Source of the DNA: Nitrospinota bacterium
Lineage (GTDB): Bacteria; UBA8248
Length of the DNA: 64,000 nucleotides
Direction of reading: 5' to 3'
Assembly: GCA_029937135.1 (NCBI GenBank)
Contig: JAPYQX010000001.1
Location: 5,790 to 69,789, forward strand
The position numbers and the translations under genes are program-made. Shown in pieces: positions 4,271 to 25,271 of the stretch (position 1 is its first letter; each line of letters opens with the position of its first letter). A model generated the notes under the pieces. The model saw only the letters and a program-made list of their open reading frames with translations, ran no database searches and was not told the DNA's origin.

Positions 4271-5302
4271 TTAATTCAAGCAGACCTTCTTGAGGTCCGC
4301 TAAATTATCGAGTACATATCCCGTCCCCCGGACGATAGCGGTCAGGGGATCCTTGGCACGGAAGATGGGCAGATCGGTTTCGGTGTGAAGCCTCGAGCCA
4401 AGGCCCTTGAGCAGCGATCCGCCGCCGGCCAGTACGATTCCCCGCCGCCGGATGTCGGCGGCGAGTTCGGGGCTCGACTTCGAGAGCGCGTTGCGAATCG
4501 ACTCGACGATTGCCCGGACGGGGCTTTCCAGCGCCTCGCGGATCATGGTGTCGGTCATCAGGATGGAGCGGGGAATGCCGGTCTTCACGTTTATCCCCGC
4601 GACTTCTCCCTCGAGTGGTTCGGCAAGAGGCGCCGCCGAGCCGATTTCAATCTTGATCCGCTCGGCCTCGAATGATCCGATAGAGAGGCCGTGCTCGCGG
4701 CGCACGTAGCGCTGAATGCAGGTGTCCATCTCATCGCCCGCCACGCGAAGCGACTCCGAGTAGGCGATAGCGAACTGGGAGATGACCGCCACTTCGGTGG
4801 TTCCGCCCCCGATGTCGATGATCATGGAGGCGGTAGTGTCCTGAATCGGGAGCTTCGATCCGATGGCCGCCGCCATCGGTTCCTCGATGAGGTGAACTTT
4901 TCCGGCGCCGCACTGCATCGAGGAGTCGATCACCGCCTTCATCTCGACACTGGTGATGCCCGAAGGAACGCAGACCATCATTGTCGGCTGGCCGATCCGC
5001 CTTTTGGAAATGACCGAACCGATAAAATACTGGATCATCGCCTTGGTTACATCGAAGTCGGCGATAACGCCGTCCTTCATGGGGCGGACGGTCTTGATCC
5101 TGTCGGGGGTCCGGCCGTACATCTCCTTGGCGCGTTTTCCGACGGCGACGACGCCGCCGCCGTTGTCCGAGTTGAGCGCGACGACGGAGGGCTCGTCGAG
5201 AACGACACCCTTTTCCTTGGTGTATATCAGCGTGTTCGCTGTTCCGAGATCCATGGCAATTTTCGCGCCAAAATACGATCTGAAGCGATTAAATGAGAGC
5301 AT
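4271..5302 (-). CDS. mreB: rod shape-determining protein MreB
   Basis: 343 aa. DLGTANTLIY, ATP-binding and actin-fold motifs are present throughout, and the length is canonical. Confidence 0.95.
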   Translation of the reverse strand: MLSFNRFRSYFGAKIAMDLGTANTLIYTKEKGVVLDEPSVVALNSDNGGGVVAVGKRAKEMYGRTPDRIKTVRPMKDGVIADFDVTKAMIQYFIGSVISKRRIGQPTMMVCVPSGITSVEMKAVIDSSMQCGAGKVHLIEEPMAAAIGSKLPIQDTTASMIIDIGGGTTEVAVISQFAIAYSESLRVAGDEMDTCIQRYVRREHGLSIGSFEAERIKIEIGSAAPLAEPLEGEVAGINVKTGIPRSILMTDTMIREALESPVRAIVESIRNALSKSSPELAADIRRRGIVLAGGGSLLKGLGSRLHTETDLPIFRAKDPLTAIVRGTGYVLDNLADLKKVCLN

Positions 5303-6752
5303 TGGATGTCATCCCCCCTGTAAGACACATCTGATTGATTCCCGAGAATTTGGCTGACTTGAGGGCCTTCGAGGAGGCCAGGAACAGACCGTCCGCGTCG
5401 CCGGCGATTTCCGGGAAACACGAGGCGCCCACGCAGGCGCTGAGCATAATCTCCCTTTGTCCGATTTGAAGGGGGTTTTCGTTGATTGCCATCAGGATGT
5501 GCTCGGCCACCGCCTCCGCGTGCTCGATAGAGGTTCCCTGAAGGAGCAGGAAAAACCGCGGGCCCTCGTAGCGGACCAGAATATCCCCGTCCCTTGCGAA
5601 GGGCTCCAGCAGATCGAAGAGGTGCCGGGTCAGCTCCTCGGGGCCGGACGGCCCGTATTCGTTCCGGATGGAAATTACATTGTCGGGCTCAATGTCCAGC
5701 AAGGCGACGCGCCGCCCGCGCGGGCCGGCGTCCCGGAGAATTTCATCCATGCGGGTCCGGAGAAATTCGAGGTTCCTCCCACCGGTGGCGGGGTCGTATT
5801 CCGCCCGCTGCCGCCATTTTTTCTCTCGTCTCACGCGCGCTATGGCGTCCGCCGCGGGCACGGCAATCACCTCAGCGCGCTTGAGCGCATAGGAGTCGAA
5901 CTGGCCCCGCTGGCGATTGATGAACCCGAGAACGCCAATCGACTTGCCGTCGATGACCAACGGAACAGCCGCCACCGAGCGCGCGCCGAAATCCGGCTCG
6001 CCTTTCTGGAACAGGGGCCTTCTCTTCAGGTCGGGAAGCCTTAGAGGCTCGTTTTTCGTAAGGACGTAGCCCGATACGCTGGAGCGGTCGCTTATCTCGA
6101 TTTTATCCATGAAAAGTTCACCGAACCCGGAGGTGCTGACAAGATGCGAAACGCCTGCTTCCTCGTCTTTTAAAACGAGGAAGCAGGCGGTAAAGGGGAC
6201 CAATTCGCGTGGTACAAGGCAGATCGCGTTTAGCAGTTGATCCTCGCTATCGCAAGAGTGCAGCGAAGCGAGGTAGATGCCGAACGAATCGATGTTGACG
6301 CTCCGGCGTTCAACTTTCGCCGCCATTAGAGCGCCGTCCACCAGGTAAGCGAATTGCTGGGCGAACCCTGCTAGAATTTTTTGGCTTTTATTGGTGAAGG
6401 ACCACCGGTTTTTACCGTCAACGGCGAGGACCCCTGTTGTCATTGTCGAGGGAAGGGGGGTCGCCATGAAGGTCTTGATGTCTTCGTCGCGGCCGTAGTA
6501 GCCGAGAACGATTGTGTCCTTGTTGAATTGGTTGAGACATAGCGGTTCGTTGTTCTTAAGCACCCAGCCCATGAAACCCTGGCCGTATTTGATCGAAGCA
6601 TTGGGAATGATGTGAGGGCTCAGGCTGTGAAAAGTGGTGAGCTGGAATTCTTTCCGGCGTTTATTTTCGAGAAACAGGCAGGCCGAATACGCTTCGGTCA
6701 CATTACTGACCAGGGTCACGAGAGAAAACAGGTCTCTTTCCAGGTTGGTCAT
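5289..6752 (-). CDS. GAF-GAF-GGDEF domain protein with a degenerate diguanylate cyclase active site
   Basis: 487 aa. Two GAF-like regions precede a GGDEF-fold domain (YDPATGGRN...LLDIEPDNV...). The catalytic GGDEF motif reads YEGPRF. The 3' end overlaps the mreB start by 14 nt. Confidence 0.85.
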   Translation of the reverse strand: MTNLERDLFSLVTLVSNVTEAYSACLFLENKRRKEFQLTTFHSLSPHIIPNASIKYGQGFMGWVLKNNEPLCLNQFNKDTIVLGYYGRDEDIKTFMATPLPSTMTTGVLAVDGKNRWSFTNKSQKILAGFAQQFAYLVDGALMAAKVERRSVNIDSFGIYLASLHSCDSEDQLLNAICLVPRELVPFTACFLVLKDEEAGVSHLVSTSGFGELFMDKIEISDRSSVSGYVLTKNEPLRLPDLKRRPLFQKGEPDFGARSVAAVPLVIDGKSIGVLGFINRQRGQFDSYALKRAEVIAVPAADAIARVRREKKWRQRAEYDPATGGRNLEFLRTRMDEILRDAGPRGRRVALLDIEPDNVISIRNEYGPSGPEELTRHLFDLLEPFARDGDILVRYEGPRFFLLLQGTSIEHAEAVAEHILMAINENPLQIGQREIMLSACVGASCFPEIAGDADGLFLASSKALKSAKFSGINQMCLTGGMTSNALI

Positions 6753-6849
6753 GAAAAACTCTGCTTCTGGGCGAATCTGGGAACACCATGGATATTATAT
6801 AGAAGGAGGCGTTATCTCAAGTAAAATTTTAAGTGAGCACCGTAAGTTA

Positions 6850-6865
6850 TTGATATTTATATCAA
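6850..6865. promoter_or_regulatory. 7-2-7 palindrome TTGATATTTATATCAA inside an AT-rich promoter region (6780-6960) upstream of the GAF-GGDEF gene
   Basis: Perfect inverted repeat TTGATAT/ATATCAA in a roughly 180-bp stretch far below genome GC, immediately upstream of the minus-strand gene starting at 6752. Confidence 0.4.
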
Positions 6866-7057
6866 TATTCGTATATTTTTTTTCGAGCGGCAAAATATCC
6901 TAACGTGGTTTATGTAAGAAAACTTGTATATTATTGTTTTATAATGAATTATGGTTAGTAAAACTGGACGGTATGAAAATCGATATATGGGGAGGTCATC
7001 AGGAAATTGGACTATATGTGGGGTTTGGGAAATATCCGCGGCTGGGCGAAGGAATGA

Positions 7058-15386: not shown

Positions 15387-16328
15387 TTACCGGCCTTTCT
15401 CGATCAAGGGAAAAAGCTCCCCGCCCAGGCGGCTTCGGGCGTCATTCAAGATGGGCTCGACGGCCTCCACGAAAACCTTGCGTTCCGGTGGAGTCAGGTC
15501 AACGATTTCGATGCCTTCTTCCTCGAGTTGGATGCGAAGCGCTTTTTCCTTGGAAAGGGCCAGCTCGCGCTGGACCCGGATGGCCTCGCGCGCCGACTCC
15601 CGGACGGCGATCCGCACGTCTTCGGGCCAGGAGTCGAAGCTTTCCTTGTGGATGTACAGACCCCGCGCTCCGAAAAAATGCGCGCTCAGGGTGATGTGAT
15701 TGTGATGATCGGTCACCCCGTAGGTGACGGTATTCGCCAGGGGGTTTTCCTGGGCGTCAACTTCGTGCGAGACGATTTTTTCGATCCCCTCTTTTAAATC
15801 GACCGGGACGGGAATGGCTCCCAACAACTCGAAAGTTTTTATGTGGACCTCGTTGGGCTGGAGCCTGATGCGCATGCCCTTGAGATCGGCGGGCGCCCGG
15901 ACGGGGCGGAGTAGATTAGACAGGTGGCGAAATCCATTGTCCCAGTAACCCATCACGCGGTATCCGGTGTGCTCTTCCGTTTTTTCGGTGAGATATTTTC
16001 CCAGCGCGCCGTCGAGGGCGGAGTGGGCGCTTTCTTCATTTTCAAATACAAAGGGCAGGTCGATGATCTCGAGCTGATAGAGCTCGGGAAAAAGACTCGT
16101 CAGATAACTGGTGGAGAAGTAGCACATCGTCAGAAGACCGCACTCCACCATCGAAAGAAGGTCGTCCGCGCGGTAGCCAAAATCGAGAATGTTCCAATAA
16201 ACATCGACATCAACAGCGTTTCCCAACCGCTTTTCAAGACACTCCTTGAAATGGATTGAGGCTTGGCTGTGGGTGGAGTCCGGTGGAGAATATCCCGCGA
16301 GCCGGAATTTGATTGCCTGGGTCATGGG
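15387..16328 (-). CDS. TRAP transporter substrate-binding protein (DctP family), orphan
   Basis: Start MTQAIKF. The DctP-type fold ends with ...HFFGARGLYI... No DctQ or DctM genes are adjacent. Confidence 0.8.
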   Translation of the reverse strand, partial: PMTQAIKFRLAGYSPPDSTHSQASIHFKECLEKRLGNAVDVDVYWNILDFGYRADDLLSMVECGLLTMCYFSTSYLTSLFPELYQLEIIDLPFVFENEESAHSALDGALGKYLTEKTEEHTGYRVMGYWDNGFRHLSNLLRPVRAPADLKGMRIRLQPNEVHIKTFELLGAIPVPVDLKEGIEKIVSHEVDAQENPLANTVTYGVTDHHNHITLSAHFFGARGLYIHKESFDSWPEDVRIAVRESAREAIRVQRELALSKEKALRIQLEEEGIEIVDLTPPERKVFVEAVEPILNDARSRLGGELFPLIEKGR

Positions 16329-16560
16329 GAATCCTTTTGTTATTCGAGCAAAATTCAAGACTAGCACATGAAATTCAGGGTATGGTTAATTTGAGAAATT
16401 CATGTAAAATATTGATTTAAATTGTTTTGTGCTGTAATTTTCGCTGTTTGTTTTCTTCCGGAAAAGAATAACATCTCCTTGACGCTTATTTATCTATTGG
16501 GCATGGTTCGTGTCCTGAAATTCGAGATCTGGCTCAGGCATCTTGGGAGAGTAAAAAAGA

Positions 16561-17157
16561 ATGGCAACCCTTCAAGAACAACTTTTTGTCCAAGTCGCTA
16601 CCCGCTCGTTGAATCTGTTGGCCAAGAATCTTCAAAAAAAGTACGAACCCAAAAAAGGAGACCGATTCAGCGTCAAGGGAATTACATATGAAATCGGTCC
16701 GCCTCGTTATGTGGACGACGGAATTCGTTTTGAGATCAGCAGCAAGATTCCGGGCGACGAGTTTCCGTCCGGCTATAACGAATCAAAGTATTTCAAGGAA
16801 ATCGAAAAGGTTTGCCAAAAATCCACTAAAAAACCCAGCTCCACCGATATGGAAAACATTATCCGCGAAACGCGGGACCAGGAACGAAAAGAGCGCGATT
16901 ACGTAAAATTGGCCTATCAATACGCCAAGAGCGAACTTTACGATGAAAGCGAAATTTTAAAAGAGGTCGAGAAATTTTCTAAAAACCCGGACCTCGAAAT
17001 TCCTCCTGCCGTGCCGGGCGCGAATACTCTCGCGGCCAGGTTGATTTTGGACCACCTTGAAGGAAGCCTGCTTGAATCGGCGGAAAAGAATATCGAAGGT
17101 CTCATCAAGGCGAACGATTTCGTCCGCTCGGGGTTCAAGAAAGCAAAGGGAAAGTAA
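16561..17157 (+). CDS. hypothetical protein encoded in a low-GC island
   Basis: 198 aa with no recognisable domain. The gene is about 48% GC, against a 62-65% background. It is preceded by a 230-bp AT-rich region and ends 12 nt before nagA. Confidence 0.5.
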   Translation: MATLQEQLFVQVATRSLNLLAKNLQKKYEPKKGDRFSVKGITYEIGPPRYVDDGIRFEISSKIPGDEFPSGYNESKYFKEIEKVCQKSTKKPSSTDMENIIRETRDQERKERDYVKLAYQYAKSELYDESEILKEVEKFSKNPDLEIPPAVPGANTLAARLILDHLEGSLLESAEKNIEGLIKANDFVRSGFKKAKGK

Positions 17158-18401: not shown

Positions 18402-18486
18402 TTTGAAAAGAACTTTCATGTAAATTTACGGGAGAGGCTCCTCTCTCGTCCGTCTGTCCAGGAATTTTTCTCTGACTAGGCGTGTC

Positions 18487-20079
18487 ATGTTCGACTTCCT
18501 TTTTCGCAATGCGCTTGTATATGACGGAAGCGGCGCGGATCCCTATGTCGGGGATTTGGCGGTCGAAGGGGAAATCATCGCCGAGATCGCTCCGGTGGGC
18601 GCTCAAAACGCCCGCTGGGTTATCGACGCCGAGGGTTTGGCCCTCACCCCCGGTTTTATCGATATCCACGGCCACTCCGATTATTACCTCTTGATGAACC
18701 CCACGGCCGAGGCCAAGGTTCGCCAGGGAGTGACGACCGATGTCGGCGGGAATTGCGGTTATTCCGCCGCCCCTATCGGCGGGATGGAGCTCGAGGAGCG
18801 CCGCTCGTATTACCGCGAGCAGTTCGGTTTGGAGATTCCCTTTTCGCGCCTTGATGAGTACCTCCGCCATGTCGAGGACATTGGCGTGTCGGTGAACTAC
18901 GCCCCCCTTATCGGCCACAACACTCTCCGCGCCACCGTGATGGGAGGAAGTGATCGGCCCGCGGGGCCGGACGACCTCGCCCGGATGGATCGTCTGGTTG
19001 ATGAGGGAATGCGGGCGGGCGCTTTCGGTCTTTCAACCGGCCTGGTTTATGCCCCGGCCTGTTTCGCTGATCGCTCGGAGTTGACGGCTCTATCCAGAAC
19101 CGCCTCGCGGCATGGCGGTTTGCTCGCTACCCATATGAGGAGCGAGGGCGCCGGGCTTTTGGAGTCGATCGAGGAAGTTATCGAAATCGCCCGGAACGCC
19201 GCGCTTCCCCTTCAAATCAGCCACCTGAAAACCGCGGGAGAGAAAAACTGGGATAAACTGGACGCGGCATTCGCGTTGATCGAAGGGGCGAGGTCGTCGG
19301 GTCAGGACGTTACCTGCGACCGATATCCTTATATAGCGTCGAATACCCATCTGAGTGCCCTGCTGCCCGATTGGGTCCATAATGGCCAGTTGGATGAGAA
19401 ATTGGCCCGGCTGCGCGAGCCCGCTAGCAGAAACCGGATTCGCGGCGAATTGATGGAAACTTATCCGGGCGCGGATTATTGGGATCGCGTTTTGATCAGC
19501 CGGGTCCTTACGGAGGAAAACAGTTTTTGCGAGGGGCTCACCGTGGCGGGGCTCGCGGAAAAAAGAGGGGTCGATTCACCGGAAGCGATGATGGATCTCC
19601 TTGCCGAAGAAAAGCTGTCCGTTGAAATCCTCATCTTCATGATGAACGAGGAAAACATGCGCCGGGTCATGGAAAAACCCTATGTGATGGTCGGCTCGGA
19701 TTCCGCCGCTTTAACTCATGAGCCTCCCCTGGGGTCGGGGAGACCCCACCCGAGGAATTTCGGGACGTTCCCGGCGGTGCTGGGAAATCTGGCGAGAGAC
19801 GAAGGGCTGTTTTCTTTTTCCGAAGCGATACGAAAGATGACCTCCGCTCCCTGTGATCGGCTGGGTATAAACAATCGCGGAAGATTGGCGGCCGGGATGA
19901 AAGCCGATCTTGTTCTTTTGGACCCCGAGCGGATTCTGGATACGGCGACTTATGATAAGCCTGTTTCCTACCCCGCCGGAATACGGATGGTTCTCGTGAA
20001 CGGTGAAGCTGTAGTCGAAGACGGAGAGCACACAGGAGCCCGCCCCGGCCGGGCGCTCCGCAAATGGGATTCAAGATAA
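18487..20079 (+). CDS. N-acyl-D-amino-acid deacylase (D-aminoacylase) family amidohydrolase
   Basis: GFIDIHGHSD and DRYPY motifs, 530 aa. Confidence 0.85.
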   Translation: MFDFLFRNALVYDGSGADPYVGDLAVEGEIIAEIAPVGAQNARWVIDAEGLALTPGFIDIHGHSDYYLLMNPTAEAKVRQGVTTDVGGNCGYSAAPIGGMELEERRSYYREQFGLEIPFSRLDEYLRHVEDIGVSVNYAPLIGHNTLRATVMGGSDRPAGPDDLARMDRLVDEGMRAGAFGLSTGLVYAPACFADRSELTALSRTASRHGGLLATHMRSEGAGLLESIEEVIEIARNAALPLQISHLKTAGEKNWDKLDAAFALIEGARSSGQDVTCDRYPYIASNTHLSALLPDWVHNGQLDEKLARLREPASRNRIRGELMETYPGADYWDRVLISRVLTEENSFCEGLTVAGLAEKRGVDSPEAMMDLLAEEKLSVEILIFMMNEENMRRVMEKPYVMVGSDSAALTHEPPLGSGRPHPRNFGTFPAVLGNLARDEGLFSFSEAIRKMTSAPCDRLGINNRGRLAAGMKADLVLLDPERILDTATYDKPVSYPAGIRMVLVNGEAVVEDGEHTGARPGRALRKWDSR

Positions 20080-23000
20080 TGGGCCTCTATTCCTCCCTGT
20101 CCCTGGTTGGCGCGATGGCGGTTAGTGCGCTCATCGCCATCTGGCTGTTCTACAAGCGCTCGCACAGGGATGATTTTCCCGAGGAAACCTGGGACCCCTA
20201 CTTTGACAAAAATCAGATCGGCGGTGGGGAAAATCCCGAAAGAGAGATCGAAGATATCTCCGGAAGGGGGGCCGGGGATGCCGCCGCGCCAGGTCTTGAA
20301 CCGGCATCTGAAAATCCGCCCGTCCCGGCCTCCAATGCGCTGGAGGATCGAATTCGGGGACTCAGGGATGAGATGTCTTCTCCGGGAGAGGACACCGACG
20401 AAGTATATGAATTCGGAGACAGCAAGAACCCCGTTCCCGAATTTGATCTCGGTCTCGACGATCAGGTGGAACAGATTGGCGGCGGCCCTGTTTCTCCCGA
20501 AAAACCCGATACAGACCGCGAAACGGCTGATCTCGCCTACGCCGCGGGTGAGGCGGAGGACGATTTCTCCGTTCCTGGAAGCCCGATTGAAACGCCCGCT
20601 CATCCACAGGGCGTATCGTCCGGTTTTGGCGGCCCGGAGGATTTTGAACCTGATTTGAATGAAAAAGCCGCCGCCTCTTCTCCGGGCGTCCCGTGGTGGG
20701 AGGGGCTTCCCGCCGCCAAGGAAGTTGTTTTCCAGAGAGGTGTGGCGGAACTGATGGGGATGACCGTCATCGATCCCCCGGGGCGGGCCGAGGCGGGTCC
20801 CGGCGAAGCCTCTACACTCGAAGCATCGACTCTTGAAGCATCGCCTCCCGAAACATCGGCTCTCGAAGCCTCGGAGACCTTCAATATGCCCGGCGATATG
20901 GCGGCGGATTCAATTCCCCCGGAAGGAGTGGATGAAGCCGAGGAGCCGCCCGCCCCGGAATTCGCCGGAGCGCCGCCCTTCGGGGAGGAAGATTCGGAGA
21001 CGCCGCGTTCCTTTGAGGAAGAAGCTTTCGAGGAAGATGAATCCCCCGTCCCGGCGCCCGCTCCGGAGGAGCAGCCCCCCGGCGAGCCGGTTTCTATATC
21101 GGACGAATCCGTGCCCACCCAAGAAATCCCGGCTGTGGATGAAGGTGATGAGTCGTCCTTTACCCTTGATTCCTTGTCGTTCGGTGACGAGCCGGACGAG
21201 GCTCCCGTGATGTACGAGGCCGAAAGCGCCACCAACCGGGCGGAAGACGGCGGATTCGCCGAACCGGGCGTCGATCAAGAAGACGTGGCCGGAGAGGGGC
21301 TTGCCCCGAAGGAGCCCGCTTTTGAGGAATCATCGGAGCAGGTTTCGTTAACCAGCGAGCCAGTCCCGGAAGAGCCGGTCGGTGCTCCCGAAAACCTCAG
21401 TGAATCTCCCTCCCCCGGCGAATCCGCTTCCACCCAAGAAATCCCGGCTGTGGATGAGGGTGATGGGTCGTCCTTTACCCTTGATTCCTTGTCGTTCGGT
21501 GACGAGCCGGACGAGGCTCCCGTGATGTACGAGGCCGAAAGCGCGCCCGCCCCTGTGGGAGAGGAGGAAATTTCGCTTTCGTCTCCCTCGGACAGCGAAT
21601 CCTCCGAAGCGATTGGTAACTTTCTCGCGGAGACTGAACCGCCTCCCTCCGCTCCGGGCGCTCCGGGCGCGGAGAGCGATTTCGTGGACGATGAGATTGA
21701 ACCTGCTCAGGAGACCGTAACCGAAGGGGAAATTTCTCCCGAACCGGAAGATGAAAGTTTCTCGAGTTTGGGAGAGTCCGAGGAAAAGCCCATGGCTTTC
21801 GATCTTGCCGCCGAGGGGTCGGAGTTCATCGATTCCGATGAATCGGCGCAAGAGCTGCCCACCGATCTTGGAGACGAAAAATTCGCATCTCATGAACCGG
21901 AGGAATTTTCCGCGGCATCCACCGGGCCGGTGGAGCCCGCCGGGCTTGGGGCGGAGGAAAGCGCTCCCGGCGATGAGCTGGAAAAAATTTCCAAAGACTC
22001 CGCCGAGGCAATCCTCGATCCCGAAGAGCTTGAGGAAGAGACGGAGCCTGAAGAAGAGCCCGCCGGCGCCGGCAGCGAACCCGTTCAAACAGAAGAAGCA
22101 TCAACGGGGGCGGTTCTCGATCCGATGGAGATGGAAGAGGAGCCTCCTGAACGGGCAATTGATTCGGAATCGTTCGAGGCCGAACCCGCGCCTCACTCTT
22201 TCGTCCAGCCGGATGACGCCCTGCCCGCCGCCGAACCGGAGGGACCTGCCCCGGAGGGACCTGTATCTGAGGAGCCCGAACCGCCGGAGCCCGTTTCGGG
22301 AGGATATGTCCCGGAGGAGTCTCTTGATGTTTTCTCCGTTCTGGAGCAGGAGCGCTCCGAAACCCCGGAGAGCATGCCGCAGGAATCGATTGGAAACGCG
22401 GCTCTTTTTGAGGATTTCGGCGATGAGAGGGCCGAGCCGCCGGAACCCCACGCCGCCGGGTGGGGCGGCGATCCTGCCGGGGCTGGAGGCGATTCCGAAG
22501 ATGCTTCCCGGAGAGAATTTGACTCGGAGGAAATCCCGGCCCAATCCGAAGAAGTCGAAGCAGAGCCCCCCCGGGAAGGAAAAATTCCTGCCGAGGAAGC
22601 GCTGGAACCAGCCATTTCTCCCCGGCCGGCCCCGCCTTCACTGCCGGCCATTACTCCCTTAACGGGTGGGTCGATGCCCGAAATTGTGCGGAATTTTATC
22701 GCCAATTATTGTCCTGACGATCTTCTGTTGATTGAAGAGGAGTGGGATACCCTTCCTGGTGGTATTGATAAAGTCGCCGCTTCCGCCTGGAAAGATATAC
22801 AGGAGCGTCTGGAAGCGCGCCAGGAAGTTGATGAGGCGGAATTTCTCCGAATCGGCCTCCTTGAATATTTGATGGGCGATCATGATGCCGCCTTGGCTCA
22901 TCTGAAAGAGTCGCTTCGGCGGGCTAAGCGCATGGGCCCGGTTTTAAATGCTCTTGGCGCGACCAGCTTTGCACGGGGGAAAATCGACCCGGCGATTTCT

Positions 23001-23819
23001 TATTGCCGGGAAGCGGTCCGGGAGGCGGGGCCGGACATGAAAATGCTGGTTGCCATCAACCGGAATCTGGGGGTTCTCTACCAAACCAAGGGCGAGTTCG
23101 GGCGCGCGGCCGAGGCGATTGCCTCGGCTATCAAGTTCGTGAGGTCCGAGGGAAGCCCCGGGATGTTGGCGAACCTTCATCTCCGGGCGGGGCAGTTGTT
23201 CCGGAAACTCGGGGACGCCGAAGCCGCCAGGCATCATCTTTCCGAGTCGGCGCATTTGTTCCTTCGTGCGGGCGACGATGCCGCGCGAATCAGGTCGCTT
23301 GTGGCGCTCGCCGCCGCGCAGACGAGATTAAACGAAATTGACGAGGCGCTCAAGAATCTGAACGAAGCGGCCTTGATGTGCCGAAGGGCGGGGGACAAAA
23401 ACGGAGAGGCCCTGGTCATGGGGCAGATGGGAATCGCCTACTCCGCCCAGGAGCAATATACCAGGGCGCTTGAATTTTATGAGAATGCCATTTCCCTCAA
23501 CCGAGAGCTTGAAAATCGCAAGGGGGAAGGGGCCAACCTCAGCAACATTGGGAACATTCATTATTTCAGGGGCGATTTCGACGAGGCGCTTTCCGCCTAC
23601 GACGAGGCGCTCGTGATTAATATCGAGCAGGATCATCTCATCGGGCAAGCCACGATTATGGGGAACCTGGGAAGAATTTATCTCGAGCAAGGGAGGGTGG
23701 AAGAGGCGATCGCGCGGCTGAAAGAATCGCTGGAAATATTCAAGCCCTTTGCCGCTGATAGCCAGATGGAAAATATACGGGAAATGCTGGCCGAGGCGGC
23801 CCGCACCCGGGATCAATAA
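20079..23819 (+). CDS. membrane-anchored, extremely acidic low-complexity protein with C-terminal TPR domain (HubP/FimV-like architecture)
   Basis: ATG overlaps the upstream stop (TAATG). The N-terminal TM helix is MGLYSSLSLVGAMAVSALIAIWLF. About 850 aa of E/P/S/A/D-rich sequence with internal repeats follow. The last 350 aa or so form TPR repeats. Confidence 0.8.
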   Translation: MGLYSSLSLVGAMAVSALIAIWLFYKRSHRDDFPEETWDPYFDKNQIGGGENPEREIEDISGRGAGDAAAPGLEPASENPPVPASNALEDRIRGLRDEMSSPGEDTDEVYEFGDSKNPVPEFDLGLDDQVEQIGGGPVSPEKPDTDRETADLAYAAGEAEDDFSVPGSPIETPAHPQGVSSGFGGPEDFEPDLNEKAAASSPGVPWWEGLPAAKEVVFQRGVAELMGMTVIDPPGRAEAGPGEASTLEASTLEASPPETSALEASETFNMPGDMAADSIPPEGVDEAEEPPAPEFAGAPPFGEEDSETPRSFEEEAFEEDESPVPAPAPEEQPPGEPVSISDESVPTQEIPAVDEGDESSFTLDSLSFGDEPDEAPVMYEAESATNRAEDGGFAEPGVDQEDVAGEGLAPKEPAFEESSEQVSLTSEPVPEEPVGAPENLSESPSPGESASTQEIPAVDEGDGSSFTLDSLSFGDEPDEAPVMYEAESAPAPVGEEEISLSSPSDSESSEAIGNFLAETEPPPSAPGAPGAESDFVDDEIEPAQETVTEGEISPEPEDESFSSLGESEEKPMAFDLAAEGSEFIDSDESAQELPTDLGDEKFASHEPEEFSAASTGPVEPAGLGAEESAPGDELEKISKDSAEAILDPEELEEETEPEEEPAGAGSEPVQTEEASTGAVLDPMEMEEEPPERAIDSESFEAEPAPHSFVQPDDALPAAEPEGPAPEGPVSEEPEPPEPVSGGYVPEESLDVFSVLEQERSETPESMPQESIGNAALFEDFGDERAEPPEPHAAGWGGDPAGAGGDSEDASRREFDSEEIPAQSEEVEAEPPREGKIPAEEALEPAISPRPAPPSLPAITPLTGGSMPEIVRNFIANYCPDDLLLIEEEWDTLPGGIDKVAASAWKDIQERLEARQEVDEAEFLRIGLLEYLMGDHDAALAHLKESLRRAKRMGPVLNALGATSFARGKIDPAISYCREAVREAGPDMKMLVAINRNLGVLYQTKGEFGRAAEAIASAIKFVRSEGSPGMLANLHLRAGQLFRKLGDAEAARHHLSESAHLFLRAGDDAARIRSLVALAAAQTRLNEIDEALKNLNEAALMCRRAGDKNGEALVMGQMGIAYSAQEQYTRALEFYENAISLNRELENRKGEGANLSNIGNIHYFRGDFDEALSAYDEALVINIEQDHLIGQATIMGNLGRIYLEQGRVEEAIARLKESLEIFKPFAADSQMENIREMLAEAARTRDQ
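21116..21229 (+). repeat. copy A of a 114-bp near-identical intragenic repeat (encodes TQEIPAVDEGDESSFTLDSLSFGDEPDEAPVMYEAESA)
   Basis: Two mismatches against copy B, which lies 315 bp downstream. Confidence 0.9.
21431..21544 (+). repeat. copy B of the 114-bp intragenic repeat
   Basis: See copy A. Confidence 0.9.
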
Positions 23820-23862: not shown

Positions 23863-24373
23863 CTAACCTCCCACGAGAACATCGGTCTCGCGGAGTTTCC
23901 TGGAAAGCTCTTTCGCCAAATGAGTAGCGATCTTGAAGCCCAGCGAGGGCAGGGTGTCGGCCAAAATGTCGCGTTCTATCGAAAAAAGCAATGTTTCCCT
24001 GGCGGCCTCCGCAGTGGCGACACGGGGCGCTTCCTCGAGAATCGCCATCTCCCCGAAACAATCTCCTTGTTTAAGTCTCGAAAGTTCGGTTATGCCGCGC
24101 CGTATGATCACCTCTCCATAAACGATCACGTAAAAACAATTTCCCAAGTCGCCCTGGTCGAATATCGTTTGGCCGGGCTCGTACGATCTGCGTCCGCAGA
24201 GTTTCAATATCCAGGTAATTTCCCTCTCGTCCATCACGGAGAAAAAAATCGTAATTCTCCCGGAGCTTGGCAATGAGTTCGGTGACCGGGGATATTCCTT
24301 CGCGCGTCAATTGAAAACCTCGTTCTTTCTGCGGGACATCGCCCGAGTTGTAGTTCGTTTTCTCCTTGCTCAT
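23863..24373 (-). CDS. cyclic nucleotide-binding domain protein, apparently interrupted by a +1 frameshift at an A7 tract (24242-24248)
   Basis: The core cNMP-binding domain (FDQGD...FGEMAILEEAPR..) lies in ORF 23863..24273. A strong RBS (GGAGGGGGAGGAG) and ATG at 24373 open a second frame whose product (..ELIAKLRENYDFF) continues seamlessly into the domain (SVMDEREITW..) if one A is removed. Confidence 0.6.
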
Positions 24374-24499
24374 GACTCCTCCCCCTCCGTGCCCGTTTCA
24401 GGCAAGAGCTGACGTATGAAATATAAATTAAAAAGAAGGAACTTTCATGACTTTTCGTGTAAGCGGGGTCACTTTTAGCGAGGGTTGGGGTTGGAGAAA

Positions 24500-25087
24500 T
24501 TACAGTTTTTTGACTTTTTCTTTTATGACGTTGAGTTGTCTTTGCATCAACTTGATGGTTTCGTTCGAATCGCGGAGCTTTTCGGAAAGTTGGCGTGCGA
24601 TGCTCGCTATGACCTTGTTGCCAAAAGTCGGCATTTTGGAATAGAGAATCGTCTTTGAAATGGAAAAAGGAAGGAGGGTTCCGAAGCCATCGCGGACGCC
24701 GTACGCCTCGCATCGTCGAGCAGGGCCATTTCACCAAAGACCATTCCGGGTCTCATTCGGGCGACCTCCTTGTCTCCGACGGTGATAATGATCTCGCCCG
24801 AAACAACCAGGTAAAATTCATTTCCGTGTTCGCCTTCCTTGAAAACCCTGCTCCCGGAATTGAAATTTTCCCTTTTGCAAAGTTTCAGGAATTGGCCCAC
24901 CTCCATCCCCTCCATCTCGGAGAAGAAGGGGGTAGTTTTTCTAAAGTTTTTGAATCAGGTTCAGCAGCGCTTTCGGAATGGATTTTTCGAACTTGATTCT
25001 CTGAGCCATGAGGTTCGGAGCCGCGGGAGCCGCCGGAGTCACCGGGGCACCGGGTTTGGGATTTCCTTTTCCAGCGGGCATGTTCAT
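24500..25087 (-). pseudogene. second cNMP-binding domain paralog, split by two frameshifts at homopolymers (T5 at 24947-24951 and A5 at 24664-24668)
   Basis: Three consecutive ORF pieces (24941..25087, 24607..24915, and a third frame ending in TAA at 24500-24502) align end to end with paralog 1. ..ALLNLIQ | KTTPFFSEMEGMEV..FGEMALLDDARRTASAMASEPSFLF | SISKTILYSKMP..IARQLSEKLR.. Confidence 0.5.
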
Positions 25088-25271
25088 TACTCTTCGCTCC
25101 CCGAGAGATGAATGCGGGTTTGAAGGAAGCACGAAAAAATCATTTCGCCTGCTCCGCTGGTATCGTTAAAATCCAGTTACTTCGCGTTCAATCCACATCA
25201 GCCTGAAAGATATACCTTAAAAAAAGGATGGTACAACTATTAGAATTTTAATAGTTACGAATAAACAAACA

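What the first reader, a model, noticed from the sequence alone, without database searches (positions are those of the whole stretch)
23863..25132. Two tandem cNMP-binding-domain paralogs disrupted by three frameshifts, each at a homopolymer tract
Paralog 1: the frame that opens at a very strong RBS and ATG (24373) joins the cNMP-domain frame if one A is removed from an A7 run (24242-24248), giving ..LRENYDFF|SVMDEREITW... Paralog 2: three ORF fragments join by deleting one T from T5 (24947-24951) and adding one A to A5 (24664-24668). The two reconstructed proteins are collinear across every junction. Three independent disruptions in two adjacent paralogs, all at mononucleotide runs, while some 55 other genes in the window are intact, suggests slipped-strand phase-variable genes, recent pseudogenisation, or localised homopolymer sequencing error in this AT-richer segment.
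Basis: seen in the sequence. Interest (0 to 1): 0.55.

Follow-up and report, generated by a model that had tools for sequence, protein, structure and literature searches.

The report
Recently broken cyclic-nucleotide sensor gene pair
Two neighbouring genes for small cyclic-nucleotide-binding proteins, intact in every related marine Nitrospinota genome examined but one, are real and very recent pseudogenes in this population, not sequencing errors and probably not on/off switches; this is an ordinary case of gene decay.

Summary
On the minus strand, 25087..24500 (P2) and 24373..23863 (P1) are a tandem pair of stand-alone cNMP-binding-domain genes (PF00027), and both are broken.

The lesion list needs correcting:
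- P1 has one lesion, a +1 T (T6 to T7; plus-strand A7 at 24242-24248).
- P2 has three lesions, not two: a CAG-to-TAG nonsense codon (24941-24943), a +1 C (C4 to C5; plus-strand G5 at 24928-24932), and a -1 deletion at 24664-24675.

The same lesions recur in contigs from 7 NCBI assemblies and 4 independently assembled Logan runs at 99.5% identity or more. By contrast, 0 of 130 homopolymers in 11 flanking genes are disrupted. Sequencing error is therefore excluded.

A sister population (95% nt) and more distant relatives keep both genes intact in the same synteny. P2's lesions are the same in every near-identical contig that covers them. P1 is polymorphic: T7 in nine sequences (window plus eight contigs), an independent -1 allele in two contigs, and the intact T6 in one.

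dN/dS is still low (0.12-0.18), so inactivation is very recent. Another Nitrospinota lineage has decayed both genes independently. Best reading: recent, ongoing pseudogenisation.

The parts
24500..25087 (-). P2: pseudogene of a stand-alone cNMP-binding-domain protein (about 195 aa when repaired; ATG at 25087, stop at 24500-24502). It has a Pro/Ala-rich N-terminus, a CNB domain with the phosphate-binding cassette FGEMALLDDARRTASA, and a C-terminal helix.
   Evidence: PF00027 at 61.2 bits after repair. Intact orthologs of 187-212 aa lie at the same syntenic position. The ortholog-guided repair is colinear with L004 and L180.
24941..24943 (-). P2 lesion 1: an in-frame TAG stop where intact relatives have CAG (Gln).
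   Evidence: The window and L008, L009, L011, L013 and L179 read CTTTAG. L180, L181 and L004-L006 read CTTCAG.
24928..24932 (-). P2 lesion 2: a +1 frameshift, C5 on the coding strand (G5 on the plus strand) where intact relatives have C4.
   Evidence: TACCCCCTT in the window against TACCCCTT in intact relatives.
24664..24675 (-). P2 lesion 3: a 1-nt deletion. The exact base is ambiguous: T6 to T5 (plus-strand A5, 24664-24668) or CCC to CC at about 24674.
   Evidence: The window reads GAACCCTCCTTCCTTTTTCCATTTC and L180 reads GAACCCTCCCTTCTTTTTTCCATTTC. The window state is identical in all ten near-identical contigs that cover the site.
24947..24951 (-). It is NOT a lesion: intact orthologs have the same tract length.
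   Evidence: CAAAAACTT is present in the window, L004-L006 and L180/L181.
23863..24373 (-). P1: pseudogene (this allele) of a stand-alone cNMP-binding-domain protein, 169 aa when repaired. Phosphate-binding cassette FGEMAILEEAPRVATA.
   Evidence: PF00027 at 69.8 bits. Intact orthologs of 169-174 aa lie in synteny.
24242..24248 (-). P1 lesion: a +1 frameshift, T7 on the coding strand (A7 on the plus strand) where the intact allele has T6. The site is polymorphic in the population: T7, T6 (intact), and A-T5 (a -1 allele).
   Evidence: T7 is in the window plus L002, L008, L009, L010, L012, L013, L014 and L015. T6 is in L001. AATTACAATTTTTCTCC is in L011 and L179. Orthologs read GAC-T5 (L004) or GAG-T5 (L180/L182).
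24376..24388 (-). Shine-Dalgarno-like GGAGGGGGAGGAG just upstream of the P1 ATG, still intact.
   Evidence: Read directly from the sequence. The G-rich stretch is conserved, with base changes, in L001, L011 and L004.
24420..24448 (-). Promoter-like -35/-10 match upstream of P1 (ATGAAA-17-TATATT). This is a consensus match only.
   Evidence: The region is conserved in the alignment.

Best explanation
The segment holds a conserved tandem pair of small stand-alone cyclic-nucleotide-binding (CNB) domain proteins. This pair is typical of Nitrospinota/Nitrospinaceae and Tectomicrobia genomes. In them it sits between an M20 peptidase gene and a gene for a large TPR protein.

In the population the window comes from, both genes have been inactivated by ordinary spontaneous mutations. 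The population is an uncultured marine Nitrospinota-like bacterium. Its closest species representative is the MAG 'ODZ_NOB7a'.

P2 was hit first and is fixed as a pseudogene. It carries one nonsense substitution and two single-base indels in short C and T runs.

P1 is being lost now. A synonymous change made a T6 run. That run has slipped to T7 in most genomes sampled and, independently, to T5 on another haplotype. A minority of genomes still carry the intact T6 allele.

Short homopolymers are simply where indels arise most easily. The indels persist here and nowhere else nearby, which implies that selection on these two genes has been relaxed. The gene products are presumably non-functional.

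Shown: the lesions, their reproducibility, the intact orthologs, the polymorphism, and the lack of excess substitutions. Inferred: relaxed selection as the cause, the order of events (P2 before P1), and the loss of function at the protein level.
For: 1. Identity of the genes. PF00027 hits. The nearest solved relatives are PKG/PKA CNB domains. The family alignments conserve the phosphate-binding cassette.

2. Intact orthologs in conserved synteny.
- L004/L005, about 85% nt, with genes of 207-212 and 170 aa.
- L016-L018.
- L019-L023, L025 and L027.
- Sister population L180/L181 at 95.35% nt, with genes of 204 and 169 aa.

3. Lesions defined against these orthologs.

4. Reproducibility.
- The TAG and C5 lesions are present in all 5 near-identical contigs that cover them.
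- The third P2 lesion is present in all 10 near-identical contigs that cover it.
- T7 is present in 8 of 11 such contigs.
- The contigs come from 7 NCBI assemblies (JAPOGH, J, L, N, O, P, Q) and 4 Logan runs.

5. Specificity. Three of 10 homopolymers are hit in these genes, against 0 of 130 in 11 flanking genes that are full-length relative to L004.

6. Two independent P1-inactivating alleles and one intact allele, each linked to distinct SNP haplotypes.

7. Recency.
- dN/dS against the sister lineage is 0.12 for P1 and 0.18 for P2, against 0.25 for the flanking M20 gene.
- There is no excess of window-specific amino-acid changes.
- The RBS is still intact, and a promoter-like consensus match is still present.

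8. Independent decay of the same pair in another lineage. L026 has different frameshifts, and its cassette reads FSEMS in place of FGEMA. P0062 shows the same frame-shifted N-terminus, with FSEMA.
Against: - No read-level data were available, so heterogeneity of tract length within a sample cannot be excluded.
- All near-identical contigs seem to come from one study (consecutive accessions). They are independent samples but possibly one sequencing platform and one environment.
- The low dN/dS means there is no positive substitution-based signal of relaxed selection. The case rests on the disabling lesions themselves.
- No cause for relaxed selection was identified. The idea that a neighbouring adenylate cyclase was lost is not supported.
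- The T7 allele of P1 could still yield some full-length protein through transcriptional or translational slippage. This was not tested.
Confidence: 0.85

Rival explanations
1. Phase variation (a contingency locus). The poly-T tract in P1 switches the gene on and off by slipped-strand mispairing, and the T5, T6 and T7 alleles are snapshots of a reversible switch controlling a cNMP receptor.
For: Three tract-length alleles (T5, T6, T7) coexist among contigs at 99.5% identity or more. Both out-of-frame states arise at the same run. The RBS is intact, and a promoter-like match is still present.
Against: - The tract is short (6-7 T). Known contingency tracts are usually longer (own knowledge).
- Orthologs interrupt the run (GAC-T5 in L004, GAG-T5 in L180), so the tract is not conserved.
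- The T6 and T5 alleles sit on a haplotype that four linked SNPs separate from the T7 haplotypes. The T5 allele also carries a G-to-A change. This points to stable inherited alleles.
- The partner gene P2 is irreversibly dead: it has a nonsense codon and two indels, identical in all contigs.
- A cytoplasmic signalling protein is not the usual kind of phase-variable gene (own knowledge).
Confidence: 0.07
2. Sequencing or assembly artefact. The indels are homopolymer miscalls confined to this AT-richer segment, and the real genes are intact.
For: Three of the four lesions lie in mononucleotide runs. An intact P1 allele exists at 99.5% identity. All supporting contigs may share one platform.
Against: - The same lesions occur in contigs from 7 NCBI assemblies and 4 Logan run-level assemblies.
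- L008 is 100% identical to the window over about 4 kb.
- One lesion is a C-to-T substitution that creates TAG.
- None of 130 runs of 5 or more bases in the flanking genes is disrupted.
- The near-identical contigs show no other gaps against the window.
- The lower GC of these genes is a conserved property of the orthologs.
Confidence: 0.03
3. The genes are still functional through recoding. Transcriptional or ribosomal slippage on the T7 run restores P1, or the fragments act as split proteins (for example the 123-aa CNB-domain ORF starting at ATG 24234).
For: The T7 run could in principle support low-level slippage (own knowledge of poly(A/T) slippage in endosymbionts). The 123-aa fragment contains the whole CNB domain. 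dN/dS is still low.
Against: - Orthologs have neither a conserved slippery site nor a conserved frameshift. They encode the protein in one frame.
- There is no Shine-Dalgarno sequence before ATG 24234.
- A different (-1) allele and an intact allele coexist, which would not be expected for a programmed event.
- P2 would need stop-codon read-through and two frameshifts.
- The low dN/dS is explained equally well by recency.
Confidence: 0.05

Closest known systems
Stand-alone cyclic-nucleotide-binding (CNB, PF00027) domain proteins; CNB domains of PKA regulatory subunits and PKG
   Same: Both repaired proteins match PF00027 well above the cut-off. They carry the phosphate-binding cassette (FGE...R-x-A-T/S-A). 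The best matches among solved structures are PKG/PKA CNB domains.
   Different: They are only about 170-200 aa: one CNB domain, a short N-terminal extension and a C-terminal helix. No kinase, channel or other effector domain is present. The ligand and the output are unknown. In this window both genes are disabled.
CRP/FNR-family transcription factors
   Same: They share the CNB effector domain. NCBIfam gives weak sub-threshold similarity to CRP (34-39 bits against a cut-off of 266).
   Different: No C-terminal helix-turn-helix DNA-binding domain was detected. The proteins end about 30-45 residues after the CNB domain. They are not members of this family.
Bacterial pseudogenes formed by homopolymer indels and nonsense mutations under relaxed selection
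   Same: Single-base indels in short runs and a nonsense codon. Intact syntenic orthologs exist in close relatives. Regulatory signals are still present. The state is polymorphic in the population.
   Different: The organism appears to be a free-living marine nitrite-oxidiser-like bacterium, not a host-restricted one. The decay is confined to this gene pair within the 64-kb window.
Contingency loci (slipped-strand phase variation), as in Neisseria, Haemophilus and Campylobacter
   Same: A coding-region homopolymer whose length differs (T5, T6, T7) among near-identical genomes, toggling the reading frame of P1.
   Different: The tract is short and not conserved. The alleles are linked to haplotypes. 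The partner gene is inactivated by a substitution. The product is not a surface or restriction-modification protein.

Membership tests
cNMP-binding domain proteins (PF00027) | Profile match above Pfam's gathering threshold | tested here: met
cNMP-binding domain proteins (PF00027) | Phosphate-binding cassette with conserved Gly-Glu and Arg (FGE...R[x]A[TS]A) | tested here: met
   P1 reads CFGEMAILEEAPRVATA and P2 reads FGEMALLDDARRTASA. The Gly-Glu and Arg residues are invariant in the ortholog alignments.
cNMP-binding domain proteins (PF00027) | Actual binding of cAMP or cGMP | not testable with these tools
   This needs biochemistry on an intact ortholog such as P0001 or the L180 proteins.
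CRP/FNR transcription factors | C-terminal helix-turn-helix DNA-binding domain | tested here: not met
   No HTH family appears in the Pfam or NCBIfam scans. The CRP equivalog scores 34-39 bits against a cut-off of 266.
Pseudogene | Intact orthologs at the same syntenic position in relatives | tested here: met
   L004/5/6, L016-18, L019-23, L025, L027 and L180/181.
Pseudogene | Frame-disrupting or nonsense lesions relative to those orthologs, reproducible in independent assemblies | tested here: met
   Four lesions were mapped. They recur in contigs from 7 NCBI assemblies and 4 Logan runs.
Pseudogene | Relaxed selection visible as a raised dN/dS or an accelerated lineage-specific rate | tested here: not met
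   dN/dS is 0.12 and 0.18, against 0.25 for the neighbouring gene. The relative-rate test shows no excess. This fits very recent inactivation, but there is no positive signal.
Pseudogene | No functional product | not testable with these tools
   This needs transcript or protein data.
Phase-variable contingency locus | Tract length varies among near-identical genomes and toggles the frame | tested here: inconclusive
   Met for P1 (T5, T6, T7), but the alleles are linked to haplotypes. Not met for P2, where all contigs are identical.
Phase-variable contingency locus | A long, conserved repeat tract maintained in orthologs | tested here: not met
   The runs are 4-7 nt. Orthologs interrupt the P1 run (GAC-T5, GAG-T5).
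Phase-variable contingency locus | Within-population or within-sample length heterogeneity in reads | not testable with these tools
   No read data were available.
Homopolymer sequencing artefact | Indels absent from independent assemblies and spread over homopolymers in general | tested here: not met
   The same indels are present in the other assemblies. None of 130 runs in the flanking genes is affected. One lesion is a substitution.
Programmed ribosomal frameshift | The frameshift and a slippery site are conserved in orthologs | tested here: not met
   Orthologs encode each protein in a single frame.

The most novel reading that the evidence does not exclude
The poly-T run in P1 (T5, T6, T7 alleles coexisting at 99.5% identity or more) is a functional, reversible on/off switch for a cyclic-nucleotide receptor in a free-living marine nitrite-oxidiser-like bacterium. 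This would be a contingency locus acting on intracellular signalling, not on a surface structure. P2 would have been discarded because it was redundant.
Probability: 0.06. Interest if true: 0.6.

Novelty: new member of a known kind. Interest (0 to 1): 0.25.

Why it matters
Mostly as a clean negative: frameshifts at homopolymers in a metagenome-derived genome are not automatically sequencing errors or phase variation.

This case could be resolved without reads, by comparing independent assemblies and close relatives. It shows a gene pair caught in the act of being lost. One gene is fixed as a pseudogene. The other is still segregating as one intact allele and two independently broken ones.

Annotators should label both loci as pseudogenes, not call five short ORFs.

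Biologically, the same conserved CNB pair has decayed independently in a second Nitrospinota lineage (L026). This hints that this cNMP-sensing module is dispensable in some marine niches. That would be a modest lead for anyone studying signalling in uncultured nitrite oxidisers.

Tried and rejected
1. Loss of a neighbouring cyclase as the cause.
- L004/L005 carry a HAMP + class III cyclase gene three genes away, and the window lacks it.
- The more distant L016-L018 also lack it.
- No ortholog at about 85% identity exists in the protein collection; the next best hit is 69%.
- The cyclase therefore looks like a gain in the L004 lineage, and the idea has no support.

2. Other broken genes in the window.
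- A mechanical scan for single-base indels that lengthen open frames flagged about 24 sites.
- All 10 ORFs checked have complete Pfam domains.
- Eleven syntenic genes are full-length against L004.
- The flagged sites checked are false positives, typical of GC-rich DNA.

3. Scans of JGI metagenome contigs.
- An exact pattern spanning the P1 tract gave 0 hits.
- A protein-pattern scan was saturated by distant cNMP proteins and returned no close relative.

4. A literature search for the accession prefixes and run numbers found nothing. The sampling site and the sequencing platform stay unknown.

5. A structured RNA in the intergenic regions: no Rfam match at E of 0.1 or below.

6. Different gene lengths called for the P2 ortholog in L016-L018 looked like possible further lesions. 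The DNA is identical and intact, and only the called start codons differ.

7. The 'AT-richer segment' as a sign of foreign DNA or error: orthologs show the same GC offset of about 5 points.

Full report
**What is there**

On the minus strand of the window, two adjacent genes encode cyclic-nucleotide-binding (CNB) domain proteins. Both are broken into ORF fragments. I call the upstream gene P2 (25087..24500) and the downstream gene P1 (24373..23863).

The two proteins align with each other at 42% identity over 132 residues without gaps, across every proposed junction. Neither has a DNA-binding or other effector domain. The nearest solved relatives are the CNB domains of PKG and of PKA regulatory subunits. 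Both keep the phosphate-binding cassette, FGEMAILEEAPRVATA in P1 and FGEMALLDDARRTASA in P2, whose Gly-Glu and Arg residues are invariant in the ortholog alignments. The basic observation is therefore real.

**Correcting the lesion list**

Searching the repaired proteins found orthologs with genomic context:
- L004/L005, about 85% nt identity. L004's contig is also the closest GTDB species representative, titled 'MAG: bacterium isolate ODZ_NOB7a'.
- L016-L018, Nitrospinaceae MAGs at about 69% aa identity.
- L180/L181, a sister population at 95.35% nt identity over 4.7 kb.

All of these have both genes intact (187-212 aa and 169-174 aa). All share the same synteny: M20 peptidase, P2, P1, then a convergent gene for a roughly 1,200-aa TPR protein.

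Against these orthologs the lesions are as follows.

| Gene | Lesion | Window coordinates |
|---|---|---|
| P1 | +1 T; T7 where the intact allele has T6 (plus-strand A7) | 24242-24248 |
| P2 | CAG-to-TAG nonsense codon | 24941-24943 |
| P2 | +1 C; C5 in place of C4 (plus-strand G5) | 24928-24932 |
| P2 | -1 deletion; T6 to T5 (plus-strand A5, 24664-24668) or CCC to CC next to it | 24664-24675 |

The repaired protein is 100% identical to database protein P0001.
Intact relatives have the same tract.
- The ortholog-guided repair reads LIQKLQKNYPFFSEMEG, identical to the orthologs.
- The total is four lesions, one of them a substitution.

**Not a sequencing artefact**

Exact-sequence look-ups of the window's own ORF fragments found eleven contigs at 99.5% identity or more. 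They come from seven NCBI metagenome assemblies (WGS prefixes JAPOGH, J, L, N, O, P, Q) and four Logan assemblies of single runs (SRR21607480, 84, 85, 86).
- Every contig that covers the sites has the window's state. TAG and C5 are in 5 of 5 contigs, and the third P2 lesion is in 10 of 10.
- One Logan contig, L008, is 100% identical to the window over about 4 kb. Apart from the P1 tract, none of the eleven contigs has any gap relative to the window.
- Within the window, 3 of the 10 homopolymers of 5 nt or more inside the two CNB genes carry a frame-breaking indel. None of the 130 such runs does in the 11 flanking genes, which are full-length against L004 (Fisher p = 2.7e-4).
- Other sites flagged by a mechanical indel scan are false positives. 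The ORFs checked have complete Pfam domains.
- A nonsense substitution cannot be a homopolymer miscall.
- The lower GC of these genes is shared by the orthologs.

**Population picture**

P2's three lesions are identical on all haplotypes sampled, so that gene is fixed as a pseudogene.

P1 is polymorphic:

| P1 tract allele | Frame | Found in |
|---|---|---|
| T7 | +1, broken | window and eight contigs |
| AATTACAATTTTTCTCC (G-to-A and T5) | -1, broken | L011, L179 |
| T6 | intact | L001 |

- In the sister lineage the tract is GAG-T5 and the gene is intact (L180, L181, L182).
- The T6 and T5 alleles share four SNPs clustered in the P1 upstream region (24386-24437) that the T7 contigs L002, L008-L010, L012, L013 and L015 lack. 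L014 (T7) carries two of them and looks recombinant. The alleles thus appear to be stably inherited, not rapidly switching.
- In L004 the codon before the run is GAC, in L180 it is GAG, and in L001 and the window it is GAT. The T6 run therefore appears specific to this lineage; it was a mutable site that then slipped in both directions.

**Timing**

Measured against the 95%-identical sister lineage, dN/dS is 0.12 for P1 and 0.18 for P2, against 0.25 for the adjacent M20 gene. A relative-rate test with L004 and L016 shows no excess of window-specific amino-acid changes. The P1 ribosome-binding site is unchanged, and a promoter-like consensus match is still present. Inactivation is therefore very recent. 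It is younger than the roughly 5% divergence from the sister lineage, and too recent to leave a substitution signature.

**Recurrence**

The tandem pair is widespread in Nitrospinota and Tectomicrobia MAGs, and L020 and L025 have three copies. One further lineage, L026 (Nitrospinota MAG OC6_4000m_MAG_328), has independently decayed copies of both genes. It has different frameshifts in P2, a frameshift in P1, and FSEMS in place of FGEMA in the binding cassette. Protein P0062 shows the same frame-shifted N-terminus, with FSEMA in the cassette.

**Why the genes are decaying**

This is unknown. I tested whether a neighbouring HAMP + class III adenylate/guanylate cyclase had been lost from the window lineage. 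That gene is present in L004/L005 as a 2.1-kb segment between two amidohydrolase genes, and the window has the empty site at 18402-18486. However, the more distant L016-L018 also lack it. No ortholog at about 85% identity exists in the 5.8-billion-protein collection; the next best hit is 69%. The cyclase is therefore more likely a gain in the L004 lineage. Relaxed selection on the CNB pair is an inference from the accumulation of disabling mutations in these genes only.

**Rival readings**

- Phase variation is excluded for P2. For P1 it is unlikely but not excluded without reads. The tract is short, it is not conserved, and the alleles are linked to haplotypes.
- Recoding by slippage, or function as split proteins, has no support from orthologs, which encode each protein in one frame.
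- No structured RNA family matches the region.

**Verdict**

This is a well-supported, ordinary case of recent and still ongoing pseudogenisation of a conserved pair of stand-alone cNMP-binding proteins in an uncultured marine Nitrospinota-like population. One lesion site was wrong and the nonsense codon was missed. Interest is low to moderate. The main value is for annotation, with a small lead about the dispensability of this signalling module.

Noticed in passing
window 18402-18486; L004 16017-17684: The related ODZ_NOB7a lineage (L004/L005) has a 2.1-kb segment with a HAMP + class III adenylate/guanylate cyclase gene between the two amidohydrolase genes. The window has the empty site, with short similar sequences (TCTTT[T/C]A) at both edges in L004. 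The next best database homolog of the cyclase is only 69% identical, which suggests a lineage-specific acquisition in L004.
   Followed up: partly
L026 3233-4478 (JAYGFR010000145.1, Nitrospinota MAG OC6_4000m_MAG_328): Both CNB genes have decayed independently in a second lineage. There are different frameshifts in P2 and in P1, and the conserved FGEMA motif reads FSEMS. Protein P0062 (14 member sequences, ENA) has the same frame-shifted N-terminus, with FSEMA.
   Followed up: partly
L020 2756-4528; L025 2148-3798: Some Nitrospinota MAGs carry three tandem copies of the stand-alone CNB gene where the others carry two.
   Followed up: no
window 20064-23819 (+): This gene encodes a 1251-aa protein with a long acidic, Pro/Glu-rich, low-complexity N-terminal half and C-terminal TPR repeats. 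It contains an internal direct repeat of about 130 nt (21100-21229 and 21416-21544). It is the most divergent gene of the syntenic block (67% aa against L004, with many indels, against 73-92% for its neighbours). It is always convergent with the CNB pair.
   Followed up: no
window 24985-25012 (P2 N-terminal Pro/Ala-rich region): There is in-frame length variation between lineages: the window is 9 codons shorter than L180 and 12 shorter than L004. It lies in a repetitive GCTCCCGCGGCTCC-like stretch and is not a disabling lesion.
   Followed up: partly
window 24386-24437: Four SNPs clustered within 52 nt of the P1 upstream region separate the haplotype that carries the intact (T6) and -1 (T5) alleles from the T7 haplotypes. 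L014 looks recombinant.
   Followed up: partly
window 23863-25087; L004 9250-10513; L016 9315-10525: The CNB genes are about 5 percentage points lower in GC than their surroundings in all three lineages (for example 0.50-0.52 against 0.586 in the window). The 'AT-richer segment' is therefore a conserved property of the genes.
   Followed up: yes
window 5289-6752 (-): An intact GAF-GGDEF (diguanylate cyclase) gene, so other nucleotide second-messenger signalling is retained in the window.
   Followed up: no
window 6001-7000 and 16001-17000: Two further 1-kb windows with low GC (0.475 and 0.447, against a mean of 0.586). The second overlaps the intergenic region between the DctP-like gene (15387-16367) and the 198-aa gene (16561-17157). 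Neither was examined further.
   Followed up: no
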